Below are positions 12,080 through 28,892 of a stretch of 29,680 nucleotides of DNA, in pieces. Each line of letters opens with the position of its first letter. Position 1 is the stretch's first letter. This DNA comes from Candidatus Norongarragalinales archaeon (GTDB lineage: Archaea; Micrarchaeota; Micrarchaeia; Norongarragalinales; Norongarragalinaceae). The notes beneath the pieces are model-generated. The model searched no databases and was not told the DNA's origin. It saw only the letters and a program-made list of their open reading frames with translations. The DNA is taken from positions 1-29,680 of the forward strand of contig JAVYMB010000001.1 in assembly GCA_038740145.1 (NCBI GenBank), given 5' to 3'. Made by a program: the position numbers and the translations under genes.

Positions 12080-13054
12080 TCAACCCAACTTTTTCACAAA
12101 TGCAGCGAGTCGTTGTTTTTCGCTTTCATCGACTTTACAGACAACCACGCCGCGCCTGGGTTGTCCGTAAGCAACTACGCTGTGCAACGGCGCGAACAAC
12201 ACAGCGGGAATGAATGCGTAGTCTTCTTCGCCTATCACGCGCACGAAAACTTTGCCGCCTCGCCGCAACGCTCGCTCGATACTGCGCGCCAACGAGCGCG
12301 TTATCGTACCTCGAGGGTTGCGGCAAACGATTTCGCGTCCCCGCACTCGCTCGATTCCAAGCACGGGATCGCCACGGCGAGTTTTTTCGTCGAAAACCAA
12401 CACGTCGGCATCTAGGTGGTCGAGAGTGCGCGCAACCACGTCGCCAACGAGGATTATCTTCGTTGGTTTGTAAAGCCGAATCGCTCGCCCCGCGCGCTTA
12501 GCGTCAGGGTAAAGGGTTCCAAAGGGGCGCTTCGCGAAAGCGCGGAGCGCTGGCGTTGCTTTAAGCGTGCGCTTGAACAACGAGCGATACAAAAAACCGC
12601 GTCTGTCTTCTTCCCCGCCGCGCATTCGCGTGCTTGAAATGTGCTTGCGGTCTTCGCTTAAAACGAGTGGGCACAAAACAATTTTTAGGGGGCGGAGTCC
12701 GCGCCGCCGTCGAGCGCGGTTGATAAGGCGCGCGCCAGCAACGGTTTCGCTAGTGCAGACTATTGCTTGGTAGCCGTCTTGCAGCGTTGGACCACAAACA
12801 TCGTGGAGTTCGTAGATTCGCGCTCGCTTGAGCCAACCTTTTTTCTTTAAAAAATTTTTAAGCGCGGCTTTGCGTTCAACGAAAGACTGCACTATTCGCG
12901 CGTAATTTTTTTTGCGCGTCATTTGCTGGACAGTTAAACCGATGAGGACGCGCTCGCCAACCGCGAAGGCTTTCGCTAACAATGCTTCGTGTCCTTTATG
13001 TAGCCTGTCGAAAGTGCCGCCAGTCGCGACTAATCGAAACTTTTTCATACTCAT
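12080..13054 (-). CDS. coaD: Fusion: archaeal phosphopantetheine adenylyltransferase (PPAT) + GTP-dependent dephospho-CoA kinase (DUF359)
   Basis: N-domain [11 protein letters not shown] (HxGH), GLT, ISST. C-domain VGD, DEKTRR, NPRGTI, VIGEED, YGQP.RG. Start at ATG 13054 or 13048; the track's extension to 13174 is low-complexity promoter DNA. Confidence 0.88.
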
Positions 13055-13057
13055 TGG

Positions 13058-13181
13058 TTTAATGCGGCGAGTCGGTTTAAATGTTTTTGAACGCCTTCTT
13101 CTCAGCTTTTTAAACCGCGTTTTAAAACACTGCGGTCGGCGTTTAAGAGCTCTTTTTAAAGCGGTTTTAAACACGTCTTTA
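13058..13181. repeat. Cluster of roughly helically phased TTTAA(A) tracts with an imperfect inverted repeat
   Basis: TTTAAA at 13076, 13109, 13121, 13155, 13166; TTTAA at 13058, 13142. TTTAAACCGC (13109) versus GCGGTTTTAAA (13161); palindrome AAGAGCTCTT at 13145-13154. Confidence 0.55.
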
Positions 13182-25345: not shown

Positions 25346-26152
25346 TTACGCTAAGAGAGCGGCACCGATTGCAGTTGCGTACTCGCCGTTCTTAGGGTAA
25401 ACCGAATTGACTCCAAAAATTTTTGCGGCAGCCGCGCTTCGTTCCCTAAAGAACTTGTTTTTCGCTGCAACGCGTCCAGTAAAAACGATTTTGTTGAACC
25501 CAGCGCTTTTCGCGGCGAAGGCGGCGGACACTCCGACGCTTTCACCTACGAGCGCGATTATGCTTAACGCTACGTCTTCCTTCTTCGGCGTGCCAGCTAG
25601 CGTCGCTACTTTACCTAAGTTCGCGGCAGTCGCAGTCGGTGGAACGACACCGATTGGCCCCCCAATTACTTCGTTGACTGTAAGGTCTAAGCGCGGCTTA
25701 CCTCGCTTCGCGAAAGACTCTAAATCGCTGGCGCGGCGTTGAAGCAACAACTTCGCTAGCCCGTCCAGCGTTCCGCCGCCTATTCCAGTGCCGCCAACGT
25801 GCTTCACGCTCGCGCCGTCCACCGCGACGAAAGGCGTTCCAGTGCCTACGTTTGCGCACAAAAACTTTTTTTCTCTCGACAAGAACGCAGCTCCAAGTCC
25901 AATGCATTGTATTTCGTCTACTCGCTTGAACCCGCTGCAAGACGCCATTCTCTTGCCTCCAGTGCAAGCGAACAATGGGCGCGCGCTCGCGCTCGTGTTT
26001 TCAGCGACGAATTCCTTGAGCACGGCATTCGAGTATTCGTTGCTTGAAACCGAGCGCGTCGCAGTCAAGTTTTTGTTTTCGAGAATAGCTAAATCCGTGT
26101 TCGAAACGCCGGCATCTACACCTACGCGTACTTCACTCACCGTCAAACCCAC
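25346..26152 (-). CDS. coaW: Type II pantothenate kinase (CoaW/Fumble, ASKHA fold)
   Basis: GVDAG, DEIQC (catalytic Glu position), NVGTGT, GGTGIGGGTL.GL, DL.V, TAANLGK, VGE.V, GEYATAIGA; matches the Staphylococcus-type PanK-II motif order. Confidence 0.85.
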   Translation of the reverse strand: MGLTVSEVRVGVDAGVSNTDLAILENKNLTATRSVSSNEYSNAVLKEFVAENTSASARPLFACTGGKRMASCSGFKRVDEIQCIGLGAAFLSREKKFLCANVGTGTPFVAVDGASVKHVGGTGIGGGTLDGLAKLLLQRRASDLESFAKRGKPRLDLTVNEVIGGPIGVVPPTATAANLGKVATLAGTPKKEDVALSIIALVGESVGVSAAFAAKSAGFNKIVFTGRVAAKNKFFRERSAAAAKIFGVNSVYPKNGEYATAIGAALLA

Positions 26153-26167
26153 CGCAAGTGTTACGCA

Positions 26168-27793
26168 CTAGAATTTAATAAATCCTGCGGACGACGCAGC
26201 AAAGCCAGCAAGCGCGAGGACTACGCCGACCAAGCCTTCCCCGCTGATGACGCCTGCTGCGGCGAGCCGCCATAACTCTGTTTTGCGCGCCTTGTCGACC
26301 ACTAATCGAATCAAGCCGCCTGCGAATAGCGGCGCACTGAGTTCGATTGGAACGTACATTCCGATTCCGAAGGCAACCGCAATCACGCCTAAACCAAGGC
26401 GCAGCGCGAAAACCGTGAGCAACGCGCCGAATAACAATCCAGTCAGTAAAAAGTTAGAGAGCGCGGACGCGGAAACGATTTCTTTGACTGCAATCGCTTG
26501 CGGTGCTGGAAGGTTTACCGAACCGATTCCTTGCGCTTTGTCAAGCGCAATCAAAACAACTCCTATAACGAGCGATGCGGCGACTACGCTGAGCAACTGG
26601 ATTTTGAATTGGTTTCGCGGGTTCGCGTGCAGCACCGCGCCTGCCTTCAAGTCTTGCAGAAAATCGCCTCCCATTCCCGCAGCGATGCACACGACTGCAG
26701 CGAGCAAGACGAGTGGGACGATGTTGAAGCCGAACGCTATCTTTGCCGCGATGAGGACGATGAGCGCGAAGATTTCCATTGGGTCGACATTCATTTCGCC
26801 CGTCACTCGCGCGCCAACATAAGCCATCGCAAACGCTCCAGCAATCGCGATTATTGATAATGCAAGGTTCATTTCAGTGATTACGGTGAGGGCTCCGACG
26901 CAAGCGATTAAAGCGGCGCCAGCCCAGCGCTTAGGCAAACCCCAATCAGCATTTGTGAAGTCGCGAAAGATTTTCTTGAATTCAGGCAATCCTTTCAACA
27001 AGAAAAACGCGAGCGCGGCACCGATAACGATTCCAACGCCGATTGGCTTTGCGAAGCCGGCGAGCGCAACTGCCTTGTCCGAAAAAACGCCGTTCGCGAT
27101 GAACCAAGGCGTCAGCAAAAAGTAAGACGCGGTTGCGCCGAGGAACCACGCGCACGTGAAAATCGGTCCGATGAGGAAGCCGCCTGCGAATGGAATCAAG
27201 GAAATTGAAGAGCCGAAAGAGAAAAAACGCGCAGCCTCTATTTTCAAGGTTTCCAGGTTTACGAAGCCAGGAATTGCTTTAAAGTAGTCGCGCGCCGCGC
27301 TGAACGCAGCGCCGACTGCGAACGATGCTGCGAGCGTCTTTGCTTTGCTTCCGCCTTCGTCTCCAGCTTGAATTAGTGCTGCTGCCGCTTGTCCGTCTGG
27401 AAAAGGCAGTCGCTCGGTTTCAATCAAGTGCTTGCGCAGCGGAATTGAAAACAATACGCCTGCGACTCCGCCGACGAGTGCTGCGACAGTAATTTCAAAA
27501 ACGCTTACTCGCAGTCCAAGCATCCAAATCGCGGGAATCGTGAAAATGACGCCCGCCGCTATAAGCCCGCCCGTGCTTCCAGCGGTTTGCATTACTACGA
27601 TTTCTCGCGCATTCGTTTTCCCGAGAACCGTCAAAACAGCGAGTGAAACCAGCGACGTAGTGACGATTGGCCAGTACACGCCGCCGATTTTGAGTCCAGC
27701 GTAAGCGGAATACATGCAAACGAGAATCGCGAGAACGCAGCCGAGCAAAGCCGCGCGCAATGTCAACTCGTCATTTTTCTTGATTTTTTCCAC
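26168..27793 (-). CDS. OPT (oligopeptide transporter) family protein
   Basis: ELTLRA..LG, YAGLKIG, QTAGS.G, GVIFTIPA, LPFPDG.AAA, DLKAG..L...PR.Q, PAPQA, GIGMYVP, GVISGEGL. Start placed at GTG 27793 so that it does not overlap trm5. Confidence 0.92.
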   Translation of the reverse strand: MEKIKKNDELTLRAALLGCVLAILVCMYSAYAGLKIGGVYWPIVTTSLVSLAVLTVLGKTNAREIVVMQTAGSTGGLIAAGVIFTIPAIWMLGLRVSVFEITVAALVGGVAGVLFSIPLRKHLIETERLPFPDGQAAAALIQAGDEGGSKAKTLAASFAVGAAFSAARDYFKAIPGFVNLETLKIEAARFFSFGSSISLIPFAGGFLIGPIFTCAWFLGATASYFLLTPWFIANGVFSDKAVALAGFAKPIGVGIVIGAALAFFLLKGLPEFKKIFRDFTNADWGLPKRWAGAALIACVGALTVITEMNLALSIIAIAGAFAMAYVGARVTGEMNVDPMEIFALIVLIAAKIAFGFNIVPLVLLAAVVCIAAGMGGDFLQDLKAGAVLHANPRNQFKIQLLSVVAASLVIGVVLIALDKAQGIGSVNLPAPQAIAVKEIVSASALSNFLLTGLLFGALLTVFALRLGLGVIAVAFGIGMYVPIELSAPLFAGGLIRLVVDKARKTELWRLAAAGVISGEGLVGVVLALAGFAASSAGFIKF

Positions 27794-27857
27794 AATCTCG
27801 CCGAAGCAATTTTTTTCAAGCAAACGCCTTTTATTTCGCAGCACATTAAAAACCTTC

Positions 27858-28892
27858 ATGCGCTCGACGCTTGCCGTAAAAATCGCTTGCCGCGACGCGG
27901 AGCGCGCAAGGCGCGAACTCGTTGCAGCGAAAGCGCTTTGCGGCGACTTGGTGCCTGAACGAAGTAAAAAATTCGTTTTTTTTCCAGTAACCAAAAAAAT
28001 TTGTTTGAACGTTCCTCATTCTTTCGAGAGAAAACGCTTTAAAACCCGGAACCGCATTCGCGGCTTTAAAGAGCTGCTCGCCGAATTTTTGAGTGCGCGA
28101 GAACTCGCAGCCGTGATTAAGAGTTTCGACGTCGTAGGTGAAATCGCCGTCATTCAAGTTCCGCAGCGGCTCGCGAGTAAAGCCAAGCGAATAGCGCAAG
28201 CGTTGCTTGCGTCAAACAACCGAATTAAAACGGTTTTGCAAAAAACAAGCGGCAGGCAAGGCGATTTTCGATTGCAGCGCGTGCGTTGGCTTGCGGGCGC
28301 ACGTCGCTTCACCACAATCCACAAGGAAAACAATTGTTTGCTCCGCGTGGATTTGCGCCGCACTTACTATTCGCCGCGGTTGAGCACCGAGCGCGCTCGC
28401 GTGGCATCACTCGTCAAGCAAAACGAGAGAGTCTTGGTTCCATTCGCTGGCGTTGGGCCATTCGTCCTTCCGATTGCGCGGCAAGGCAAAGCAGCTGAAG
28501 TCGTTGCTATTGAATTAAACCCGGCGGCGGCGCGGTTGTTGAAGGAAAACGTTTGCTTGAACCGCGCCAGCGACCGAGTGCGCGTCATTCAAGGAGATGC
28601 CGCGCGCGTAATGGCGTCGCGCGAGTTTCGCGGTTGGGCGGACAGAATCGTAATGCCCCTCCCCCACACTGCACGCTCGTTTCTACCAAGCGCTTTAAAG
28701 GCTTTAAAGCGCGGCGGAACAATTCACTTTTACAGAATCGTTTTAAAAACGCAAGGCGCCACAGAACTCGAACGCGAGGCGCGAGAGGCGTGCGCTCAAG
28801 CCGGTAAGAAGTTCAAGAAACTTGGTTCACGCAGGGTAATCGTTTTTTCTCCGAGTCGCGCGGAATTCGTTTTGGACTTCAAAGTTTTTTAA
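27858..28892 (+). CDS. trm5: tRNA G37 methyltransferase, aTrm5/Taw22 family (SAM-dependent)
   Basis: N-terminal D1 domain, SFDVVGEIAVI, YYSPRLSTER.R, PFAGVGPF, IELNP, IQGDA, RIVMPLP, G.IHFY. Start at ATG 27858. Confidence 0.9.
   Translation: MRSTLAVKIACRDAERARRELVAAKALCGDLVPERSKKFVFFPVTKKICLNVPHSFERKRFKTRNRIRGFKELLAEFLSARELAAVIKSFDVVGEIAVIQVPQRLASKAKRIAQALLASNNRIKTVLQKTSGRQGDFRLQRVRWLAGARRFTTIHKENNCLLRVDLRRTYYSPRLSTERARVASLVKQNERVLVPFAGVGPFVLPIARQGKAAEVVAIELNPAAARLLKENVCLNRASDRVRVIQGDAARVMASREFRGWADRIVMPLPHTARSFLPSALKALKRGGTIHFYRIVLKTQGATELEREAREACAQAGKKFKKLGSRRVIVFSPSRAEFVLDFKVF

What the first reader, a model, noticed from the sequence alone, without database searches (positions are those of the whole stretch)
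25346..27793. OPT transporter coupled to a type II pantothenate kinase: candidate CoA/pantetheine salvage system in an archaeon
Seen: an OPT-family transporter ends 15 nt before a PanK-II gene on the same strand, and a PPAT-DPCK fusion lies 12 kb away. Established: most archaea make 4'-phosphopantothenate with pantoate kinase + phosphopantothenate synthetase rather than PanK; type II PanKs are bacterial/eukaryal and accept pantetheine-like substrates. Inference: the OPT imports pantetheine or a related peptide-like CoA fragment, and PanK-II -> PPAT -> DPCK completes CoA in three steps without CoaBC, which suits a host-dependent cell. This would be a new substrate class for OPT transporters.
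Basis: partly seen in the sequence, partly recalled or inferred. Interest (0 to 1): 0.7.

Follow-up and report, generated by a model that had tools for sequence, protein, structure and literature searches.

The report
Archaeal transporter-kinase pair for coenzyme A salvage
A small host-dependent archaeon keeps an OPT-family membrane transporter gene directly in front of a pantothenate-kinase-like gene, and comparison with hundreds of relatives indicates that the pair imports and phosphorylates a ready-made coenzyme A fragment (most likely pantetheine) in place of the missing middle steps of coenzyme A synthesis.

Summary
An OPT permease (26168-27793, minus strand) ends 15 nt before a type II PanK-like kinase (25346-26152, minus strand). 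A PPAT-DPCK fusion lies 12 kb away.

The genome is a 756-kb Micrarchaeota (DPANN) MAG, 80% complete. I found no PanB, PanC, PPS, pantoate kinase or CoaB in it, but it does have HMG-CoA reductase, so it needs CoA.

In 61 genomes of the order:
- All 16 with this OPT have it directly upstream of the kinase. None of the 16 has PanC or CoaB.
- The 6 with the kinase but no OPT all have PanC, and 5 of them have CoaB.
- Outside the genus, no other window gene stays within about 8 kb of the pair.

The pair recurs in another Micrarchaeota family and in 33 of 80 metagenomic OPT loci. Five of those loci are PPAT-OPT-PanK clusters.

Caveats:
- Yeast Opt1 was shown in 2025 to import pantetheine-glutathione disulfides, so the substrate class is not entirely new.
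- The kinase belongs to a distinct subfamily with His where human PanK3 has the pantothenate-contacting Arg207.
- Some Micrarchaeota keep the OPT without any PanK.
- First readers of this scan noted OPT-PanK pairs in two other genomes. Neither note has a follow-up.

The parts
26168..27793 (-). OPT-family permease, 541 aa from GTG 27793 (the open frame extends to TTG 27994). Proposed importer of pantetheine or a pantetheine disulfide.
   Evidence: PF03169, E 1.4e-56, model positions 1-621 of 623. About 13-16 hydrophobic spans. AF2 model pLDDT 84; its only PDB fold match is barley Yellow Stripe 1, 7wst, E 3.6e-13. It is the single OPT gene in the genome.
26153..26167 (-). 15-nt spacer between the OPT stop (TAG 26170-26168) and the kinase GTG 26152. 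The spacer is 27 nt if the kinase starts at GTG 26140.
   Evidence: Sequence read. The median OPT-to-kinase gap in 33 metagenomic pairs is 108 nt, with a minimum of 12.
25346..26152 (-). Type II PanK-like (Fumble family, ASKHA) kinase, 268 aa. Proposed pantetheine/pantothenate 4'-kinase.
   Evidence: PF03630, 69.1 bits against a cut-off of 28.5; NF009842, E 1.6e-50 but below its cut-off. Profile against PDB: S. aureus type II PanK, E 1e-33, full length. AF2 pLDDT 86; top Foldseek hits are all S. aureus PanK-II, TM 0.77. Conserved D13, E80, G103-T106 and G125-T128; invariant H118.
12080..13174 (-). PPAT-DPCK fusion. Phosphopantetheine adenylyltransferase spans about residues 44-196 and the archaeal GTP-dependent dephospho-CoA kinase (DUF359) spans about residues 205-363. 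These are the last two steps to CoA.
   Evidence: PF01467 plus PF04019. NF001985, 154.7 bits against a cut-off of 104; NF041125, E 6e-26. PPAT-arCOG04076 fusions and the DPCK activity of TK1697 are described in PMC6650551.

Best explanation
The OPT permease and the PanK-II-like kinase form a two-gene uptake-and-trapping module for a CoA precursor that already carries the cysteamine part. The most likely cargo is pantetheine or its disulfide (pantethine or a mixed disulfide).

Proposed steps:
1. The permease imports the compound. Proton symport is assumed from the family.
2. The kinase phosphorylates the 4'-hydroxyl to give 4'-phosphopantetheine.
3. The PPAT-DPCK fusion 12 kb away converts that to dephospho-CoA and then CoA.

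The module replaces pantothenate synthesis and the CoaBC steps, which this Micrarchaeota lineage lacks.

Shown:
- the gene families and folds;
- the conserved gene order;
- mutual exclusion with PanC and CoaB;
- PPAT-OPT-PanK clusters elsewhere;
- the cell's need for CoA.

Inferred:
- the identity of the transported molecule;
- the kinase's substrate and activity;
- co-transcription of the two genes.
For: 1. Families and folds are as stated.

2. Own genome: no PPS, CoaB, PanB or PanC. The only flavoprotein is UbiX and the only GHMP kinase is mevalonate-kinase-like. HMG-CoA reductase is present.

3. Order-level sample of 61 genomes:
- The kinase is in 22 and the OPT is in 16. In all 16 the OPT lies directly upstream on the same strand.
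- CoaB is in 0 of 16 pair genomes. Seven of these are at least 90% complete.
- CoaB is in 5 of 6 kinase-without-OPT genomes.
- PanC is in 0 of 16 pair genomes and 6 of 6 kinase-without-OPT genomes.
- PPS is in 0 of 61.
- DPCK is in 14 of 16 pair genomes.

4. Outside the genus, no other window gene lies within about 8 kb of the pair, so selection acts on the pair itself.

5. The kinase tree interleaves OPT-linked and PanC/CoaBC-linked kinases. It is one orthologous kinase used in both settings.

6. Context elsewhere ties the kinase to CoA:
- PanC lies directly upstream of it in G045.
- PPAT lies directly downstream of it in a Bathyarchaeia MAG.
- Five metagenomic loci carry PPAT-OPT-PanK on one strand, with PPAT at 134 bits against a cut-off of 104.

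7. From the OPT side, 33 of 80 metagenomic OPT loci carry the kinase downstream. These lie on both sides of the deepest split of this OPT clade.

8. No other recurrent neighbour turned up.

9. Four further pair-bearing genomes lack CoaB.

10. Precedents: yeast Opt1 imports (phospho)pantetheine as glutathione disulfides, and type I/II but not type III PanKs phosphorylate pantetheine (PMC12406275). B. subtilis salvages cysteinopantetheine via TcyJKLMN and CoaA (PMC11487621).
Against: - No biochemical or expression data exist, and no sequencing run was listed for the locus.
- The kinase scores below the NCBIfam equivalog cut-off. It has His at the position of S. aureus R113, which by my alignment corresponds to human PanK3 R207. 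R207 contacts pantothenate (PMC8366970). Some PanK-II homologues are known pseudo-kinases (human PANK4; paper title seen).
- Close OPT orthologues (47-55% identity) occur in other Micrarchaeota families with no PanK-II, type III PanK or CoaB in the genome. The OPT therefore does not strictly need this kinase.
- Many relatives have DPCK but neither OPT nor PanK.
- Absences rest on MAGs that are 68-97% complete. Related genomes are not independent samples.
- An unchecked scan note reports an OPT next to coaBC and pantoate kinase in another genome (e1-4995691).
Confidence: 0.66

Rival explanations
1. The OPT imports pantothenate (vitamin B5). The kinase makes 4'-phosphopantothenate, and the cysteine-addition and decarboxylation steps are done by unrecognised, non-homologous enzymes.
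For: The same kinase family works with PanC and CoaBC in sister lineages, so it probably accepts pantothenate. Pantothenate is the commonest external CoA precursor.
Against: CoaB (PF04127) is absent from all 16 pair genomes of the order, from 4 further pair genomes, and from all 23 OPT-bearing genomes of the phylum sample. The same model finds it in 14 of 14 control genomes and in 5 of the 6 relatives that have the kinase but no OPT. Lineages that do use pantothenate have no OPT. No non-homologous replacement for CoaB or CoaC is known to me.
Confidence: 0.1
2. The OPT is a general oligopeptide (or glutathione or metal-chelate) importer. Its position next to the kinase reflects shared regulation or a historical accident, not a shared substrate.
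For: Characterised OPTs carry tetra- and pentapeptides, glutathione or metal-nicotianamine complexes, and the only solved relative is an iron-phytosiderophore carrier. OPT orthologues exist without any PanK in three other Micrarchaeota families, with unrelated neighbours. DPANN cells need amino acids.
Against: The adjacency survives complete loss of surrounding synteny and OPT divergence down to 28-33% identity. Within the order the OPT is never found without the kinase: 0 of 39 kinase-less genomes have it. The OPT is sandwiched between PPAT and PanK in five loci. Presence of the pair excludes PanC and CoaB.
Confidence: 0.1
3. The cargo is 4'-phosphopantetheine, dephospho-CoA or CoA-derived fragments. 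The kinase only re-phosphorylates the portion that arrives dephosphorylated, or it acts on another OPT cargo altogether because the His-type kinase is not a true PanK.
For: Yeast Opt1 carries both pantetheine and 4'-phosphopantetheine conjugates. OPT-only Micrarchaeota have PPAT and DPCK but no recognisable PanK, which fits import of the phosphorylated form. The Arg-to-His change at the substrate-contact position is invariant in 83 of 84 family members.
Against: If the phosphorylated form were the main cargo, the kinase would be dispensable. Yet it is retained in a tight pair across deep divergence. The contexts with PanC and PPAT argue that the kinase is a genuine CoA-pathway enzyme.
Confidence: 0.12

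Closest known systems
Yeast Opt1/Hgt1-dependent non-canonical CoA route (Wedman et al. 2025, PMC12406275)
   Same: An OPT-superfamily permease supplies pantetheine-type precursors. These enter CoA synthesis after the PPCS/PPCDC steps, so the early enzymes become dispensable.
   Different: In yeast the cargo is a glutathione mixed disulfide, the transporter is a broad glutathione/peptide carrier, and it is not genetically linked to the kinase. Those authors state that Opt1 appears to have no orthologues outside yeast. Here the permease is a distant prokaryotic OPT (orthology to Opt1 was not tested). It is hard-wired next to the kinase and is found in genomes that lack CoaBC altogether. Most archaea are not known to make glutathione (my own knowledge).
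Staphylococcus aureus type II pantothenate kinase CoaW (PDB 2ews, 4m7x)
   Same: Same length and ASKHA fold: profile E 1e-33 over the full length and TM 0.77. Same phosphate-1 Asp, catalytic Glu and GTGT/GGG motifs.
   Different: 25% identity. It scores below the NCBIfam equivalog cut-off. It has an invariant His where S. aureus PanK has R113, which by my alignment corresponds to human PanK3 R207. It forms a separate clade with archaeal and gut or rumen bacterial members.
Bacillus subtilis cysteinopantetheine salvage via TcyJKLMN plus CoaA (PMC11487621)
   Same: Import of a pantetheine disulfide, followed by PanK, PPAT and DPCK, bypassing pantothenate synthesis.
   Different: That system uses an ABC cystine transporter acting promiscuously when de-repressed. 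It is not a dedicated gene pair, and its kinase is type I.
Barley Yellow Stripe 1 (7wst), the only solved OPT-superfamily structure
   Same: Same overall fold (E 3.6e-13, TM 0.62).
   Different: 18% identity. YS1 carries Fe(III)-phytosiderophore. Nothing links the archaeal protein to metal uptake.
Archaeal CoA pathway of Thermococcus kodakarensis (PoK, PPS, CoaBC, PPAT, GTP-DPCK; PMC6650551)
   Same: Same PPAT and DUF359 DPCK for the last two steps. PPAT-DPCK fusions were already noted in uncultured archaea.
   Different: PoK, PPS and CoaBC are all missing here. Entry is through a kinase of the bacterial/eukaryotic type together with a transporter.

Membership tests
OPT oligopeptide transporter family (PF03169, TC 2.A.67) | Full-length match to the family profile above the curated cut-off | tested here: met
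   192.9 bits against a cut-off of 25.8, model positions 1-621 of 623. The NCBIfam OPT models score below their cut-offs (143.7 against 182.5).
OPT oligopeptide transporter family (PF03169, TC 2.A.67) | Polytopic membrane protein with the OPT/YSL fold | tested here: met
   About 13-16 hydrophobic spans. AF2 pLDDT 84. The only significant PDB fold match is barley YS1.
OPT oligopeptide transporter family (PF03169, TC 2.A.67) | Proton-coupled uptake of peptides or peptide-like chelates | not testable with these tools
   Needs transport assays.
Type II pantothenate kinase (CoaW / Fumble, PF03630, NF009842) | Family profile match | tested here: inconclusive
   Pfam Fumble is met (69.1 bits against 28.5). 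The NCBIfam equivalog NF009842 is not met (172 bits against 234). Relatives in PPAT-OPT-PanK clusters reach 223-227 bits.
Type II pantothenate kinase (CoaW / Fumble, PF03630, NF009842) | ASKHA fold with phosphate-1 Asp, catalytic Glu, and GTGT and GGG nucleotide motifs | tested here: met
   D13, E80, G103-T106 and G125-T128 are invariant in the family alignment. The top Foldseek hits are all S. aureus PanK-II, TM 0.77.
Type II pantothenate kinase (CoaW / Fumble, PF03630, NF009842) | Arg that contacts pantothenate (human PanK3 R207, S. aureus R113) | tested here: not met
   His118 aligns with S. aureus R113, and His is found in 83 of 84 family members. The role of R207 is taken from the PMC8366970 figure legend. 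The equivalence of S. aureus R113 and human R207 rests on my own alignment from memory.
Type II pantothenate kinase (CoaW / Fumble, PF03630, NF009842) | Phosphorylates pantothenate and pantetheine | not testable with these tools
   Only context evidence is available: PanC, PPAT and CoaBC association.
Pantetheine salvage route (PanK, PPAT, DPCK without CoaBC) | All three enzymes are present | tested here: met
   The kinase at 25346-26152 and the PPAT-DPCK fusion at 12080-13174.
Pantetheine salvage route (PanK, PPAT, DPCK without CoaBC) | CoaB/CoaC and pantothenate or phosphopantothenate synthesis are absent | tested here: met
   None was found in the own genome (80% complete), in its 4 congeners, or in 11 further pair genomes of the order. 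The absences rest on incomplete MAGs.
Archaeal PPAT and GTP-dependent DPCK (NF001985; DUF359/arCOG04076) | Profile matches above the cut-offs | tested here: met
   NF001985, 154.7 bits against 104. PF04019, 95.5 bits against 25.

The most novel reading that the evidence does not exclude
An old clade of archaeal OPT permeases would be the first dedicated pantetheine/pantethine importer known in prokaryotes. It would be ancestrally coupled to a His-type 'pantetheine kinase' subfamily of PanK-II. Together they would form a portable two-gene module (three genes with PPAT) that lets DPANN and other uncultured archaea discard pantothenate synthesis and CoaBC. In lineages that kept the OPT but lost the kinase, the same carrier would bring in 4'-phosphopantetheine.
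Probability: 0.5. Interest if true: 0.78.

Novelty: new variant of a known kind. Interest (0 to 1): 0.68.

Why it matters
How cells take up pantetheine and 4'-phosphopantetheine was described as unresolved as recently as 2025 (PMC12406275). Only two carriers are known, and neither is dedicated: yeast Opt1 and the B. subtilis cystine ABC system. I know of no prokaryotic OPT whose physiological substrate has been characterised.

A conserved OPT-kinase operon that excludes PanC and CoaBC gives a concrete, clonable candidate for a dedicated CoA-precursor importer. It also explains how many DPANN archaea obtain CoA from a host or community. It defines a large, uncharacterised His-type branch of type II pantothenate kinases in archaea and in gut and rumen bacteria. 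The hypothesis can be tested directly by complementation and uptake assays.

Tried and rejected
- The one Flavoprotein (PF02441) hit in the genome could have been CoaC. NCBIfam shows it is UbiX, next to a mevalonate-kinase-like GHMP kinase. It is therefore neither CoaC nor pantoate kinase.
- I tested whether the adjacency is mere residual synteny. Within the genus the whole neighbourhood is conserved, but beyond it only the pair persists, so I rejected this.
- I looked for another recurrent partner of the OPT in loci without the kinase. The neighbours are TPR proteins, a glycosyltransferase, a lyase, a peroxiredoxin and others, with no pattern.
- I asked whether the long PPAT ORFs of OPT-only genomes hide a replacement kinase. 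The extra domain is the known DUF84 NTPase.
- Type III PanK was not found in the OPT-only genomes.
- A sequence search of the PDB with the OPT gave nothing. Only the fold search found YS1.
- No public sequencing run was listed for the locus, so co-transcription could not be checked.
- Literature searches for Micrarchaeota or DPANN CoA salvage, or for OPT-coaW links, found no prior description of this pair.
- At phylum level, absence of CoaB from OPT-bearing genomes is not informative on its own. CoaB is rare overall (19 of 301), so about 1.5 overlaps would be expected by chance.
Full report
**What is in the window**

Two co-directional minus-strand genes occupy 25346-27793.

- The upstream ORF is open from 27994, but its likely start is GTG 27793. 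It matches Pfam OPT over the whole model (E 1.4e-56). It has about 13-16 hydrophobic spans. An AlphaFold model (pLDDT 84) has one significant fold match in the PDB, barley Yellow Stripe 1, which is the only solved OPT-superfamily member.
- Its stop codon (TAG, 26170-26168) lies 15 nt before the GTG of a 268-aa ORF.
- That ORF matches Pfam Fumble above its cut-off. It also matches the NCBIfam type II pantothenate kinase model at E 1.6e-50, but that score is below the equivalog cut-off.
- A profile of the kinase and its relatives aligns end to end with S. aureus type II PanK structures (E 1e-33). The AlphaFold model (pLDDT 86) gives those structures as its top Foldseek hits (TM 0.77), followed by yeast CAB1 and human PANK1-3.
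- At 12080-13174 (minus strand) there is a PPAT-DPCK fusion. PPAT (NF001985) scores above its cut-off, and the DPCK part is DUF359, the archaeal GTP-dependent enzyme (PMC6650551).

**The organism and its CoA genes**

- The window also encodes RadA, Mre11/Rad50, Trm5b and Taw1.
- Named relatives are Candidatus Micrarchaeota, and some are labelled Norongarragalinales.
- The assembly is 756 kb in 105 contigs and is 80% complete.
- It contains one Fumble-type kinase and one OPT.
- I found no phosphopantothenate synthetase, CoaB, PanB or PanC.
- The only flavoprotein-family hit is UbiX. The only GHMP kinase resembles mevalonate kinases, not a pantoate kinase.
- HMG-CoA reductase is present, so the cell uses CoA.

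**Conservation of the pair**

I searched 61 genomes of the same order.

- The kinase occurs in 22 genomes and the OPT in 16.
- In all 16, the OPT lies immediately upstream of the kinase on the same strand. These genomes span two families and six genera. OPT identity is 56-79% and kinase identity is 40-85%.
- Within the genus the whole neighbourhood is syntenic. Outside it, none of the other 27 window genes lies within about 8 kb of the pair. What is conserved is the pair itself.
- In a 301-genome sample of the phylum, the pair appears again in a different family (G251 and G266), with an OPT only 28-29% identical to this one.
- A metagenome scan that started from the OPT found the kinase directly downstream in 33 of 80 loci, with a median gap of 108 nt. 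Of the rest, 37 loci lack it and 10 are cut too short to tell.
- In an OPT tree, pair-bearing loci lie on both sides of the deepest split, and the kinase-less groups are nested inside. This suggests an old association with later losses.

**Complementarity with the canonical pathway**

This is the strongest argument. Counts are for the 61 genomes of the order.

| Genome class | n | PanC | CoaB | DPCK |
|---|---|---|---|---|
| Kinase with OPT (pair) | 16 | 0 | 0 | 14 |
| Kinase without OPT | 6 | 6 | 5 | 6 |

- Seven of the 16 pair genomes are at least 90% complete.
- The archaeal PoK/PPS route is not used in this order: PPS was found in 0 of 61 genomes.
- Four more pair-bearing genomes reached through other loci also lack CoaB.
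- Missing CoaB in all 16 through incompleteness alone is vanishingly unlikely. These genomes are related, however, so they are not 16 independent trials.
- The kinase tree interleaves OPT-linked and PanC/CoaBC-linked kinases, and well-supported branches force at least two switches. One orthologous kinase therefore serves either a complete pantothenate pathway or the OPT-linked short pathway.

**Context that ties both proteins to CoA**

- In G045, PanC sits directly upstream of the kinase.
- In a Bathyarchaeia MAG, PPAT follows the kinase directly.
- Five metagenomic loci carry PPAT, OPT and kinase in a row on one strand, with the PPAT above its NCBIfam cut-off. Here a permease lies between exactly the two enzymes that turn pantetheine into dephospho-CoA, which is hard to explain unless its cargo feeds them.
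- The kinase family also occurs fused to an ECF-type vitamin S-component. This is a second, independent pairing of the kinase with an uptake protein.

**Most likely mechanism**

1. The OPT imports pantetheine, or its disulfide, which is reduced inside the cell.
2. The kinase phosphorylates it to 4'-phosphopantetheine.
3. The PPAT-DPCK fusion completes CoA.

The shown parts are the gene families and folds, the conserved gene order, the complementarity with PanC and CoaBC, and the cell's need for CoA. The inferred parts are the cargo, the kinase's activity and specificity, proton coupling, and co-transcription. I put this explanation at about two in three.

**Literature**

- Most archaea use PoK/PPS, and PPAT-DPCK fusions occur in uncultured archaea (PMC6650551).
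- Type II PanK is usually described as eukaryotic plus staphylococcal (PMC7883664).
- Uptake of pantetheine and 4'-phosphopantetheine was called unresolved until yeast Opt1 was shown to import them as glutathione mixed disulfides. That paper states that Opt1 appears to have no orthologues outside yeast, and that type III PanK cannot phosphorylate pantetheine (PMC12406275).
- B. subtilis imports cysteinopantetheine through a cystine ABC transporter (PMC11487621).
- I found no paper describing an OPT-PanK operon or CoA salvage in Micrarchaeota.

A dedicated, genetically linked prokaryotic system is not.

**Caveats and loose ends**

- *His in place of the substrate-contact Arg.* The kinase family has an invariant His (H118; 83 of 84 members) where S. 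aureus PanK has R113. By my own alignment this position corresponds to human PanK3 R207, a residue that contacts pantothenate (PMC8366970). The family is therefore a distinct subfamily, and I do not file it as an equivalog of CoaW. The catalytic Glu is retained.
- *OPT without the kinase.* OPT orthologues (47-55% identical) exist in three other Micrarchaeota families. The five genomes I checked, all at least 92% complete, have PPAT (fused to a DUF84 NTPase) and DPCK. They have no PanK-II, type III PanK or CoaB. Either the carrier also brings in the phosphorylated precursor, as yeast Opt1 does, or a kinase is unrecognised, or the OPT has a broader role.
- *DPCK without OPT or kinase.* Many relatives have DPCK but neither OPT nor the kinase.
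- *Missing evidence.* No expression data could be obtained. All absences rest on MAGs.

**Earlier scan notes**

First readers recorded OPT-PanK-II pairs in two other genomes (e1-4696736 and e1-3819156). They also recorded ECF-S/PanK-II pairs, and one OPT beside coaBC and pantoate kinase. None of these notes carries a follow-up report. I treat them as leads only, and they agree with the distribution found here.

**Verdict**

It is a new variant of a known kind. Pantetheine salvage through PanK, PPAT and DPCK is known, and OPT-mediated import has one eukaryotic precedent. A conserved archaeal OPT-kinase module that replaces PanC and CoaBC has not, to my knowledge, been described.

Noticed in passing
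proteins P0050, P0055, P0058, P0063: Proteins of 440-454 aa with an N-terminal ECF transporter S-component (PF12822) fused to a C-terminal PanK-II-like domain of the same kinase family. This is a physical fusion of a transporter and the kinase.
   Followed up: partly
G299, G248, G189, G150, G226 (loci L127-L131, L136-L140, L221-L224): These Micrarchaeota genomes (at least 92% complete) have an orthologous OPT, a PPAT-DUF84 NTPase fusion and DPCK. No PanK-II, type III PanK or CoaB was found, so their entry point into CoA synthesis is unexplained.
   Followed up: partly
L065:2696-4049 (Bathyarchaeia MAG, genome G065): The PanK-II-like gene is followed directly by PPAT. No CoaB was found in that 2.2-Mb genome, which suggests pantetheine salvage outside DPANN as well.
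   Followed up: no
L046:1049-1879 (G045): The kinase downstream of PanC matches the query in two different reading frames (pieces at 1071-1388 and 1668-1862 against 1403-1651). It is also a very long branch in the tree. It probably carries frameshifts or assembly errors.
   Followed up: no
window 27714-27870: The longest Trm5b ORF (from ATG 27714, plus strand) overlaps the 5' end of the OPT gene. The Trm5b family match begins at residue 53, so its real start is probably near 27870. That leaves a short A/T-rich divergent intergenic region.
   Followed up: no
relatives G006, G008, G009, G013 and others: About half of the order's genomes that lack both the kinase and the OPT (21 of 39) still encode the DUF359 DPCK. 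A third, unidentified way of acquiring late CoA precursors must exist.
   Followed up: no
G000 contig C2:1563-4434 (loci L002, L003): A mevalonate-kinase-like GHMP kinase lies about 1.3 kb from a UbiX flavin prenyltransferase. HMG-CoA reductase is on contig C23. This is consistent with an archaeal-type mevalonate pathway in this reduced genome.
   Followed up: partly
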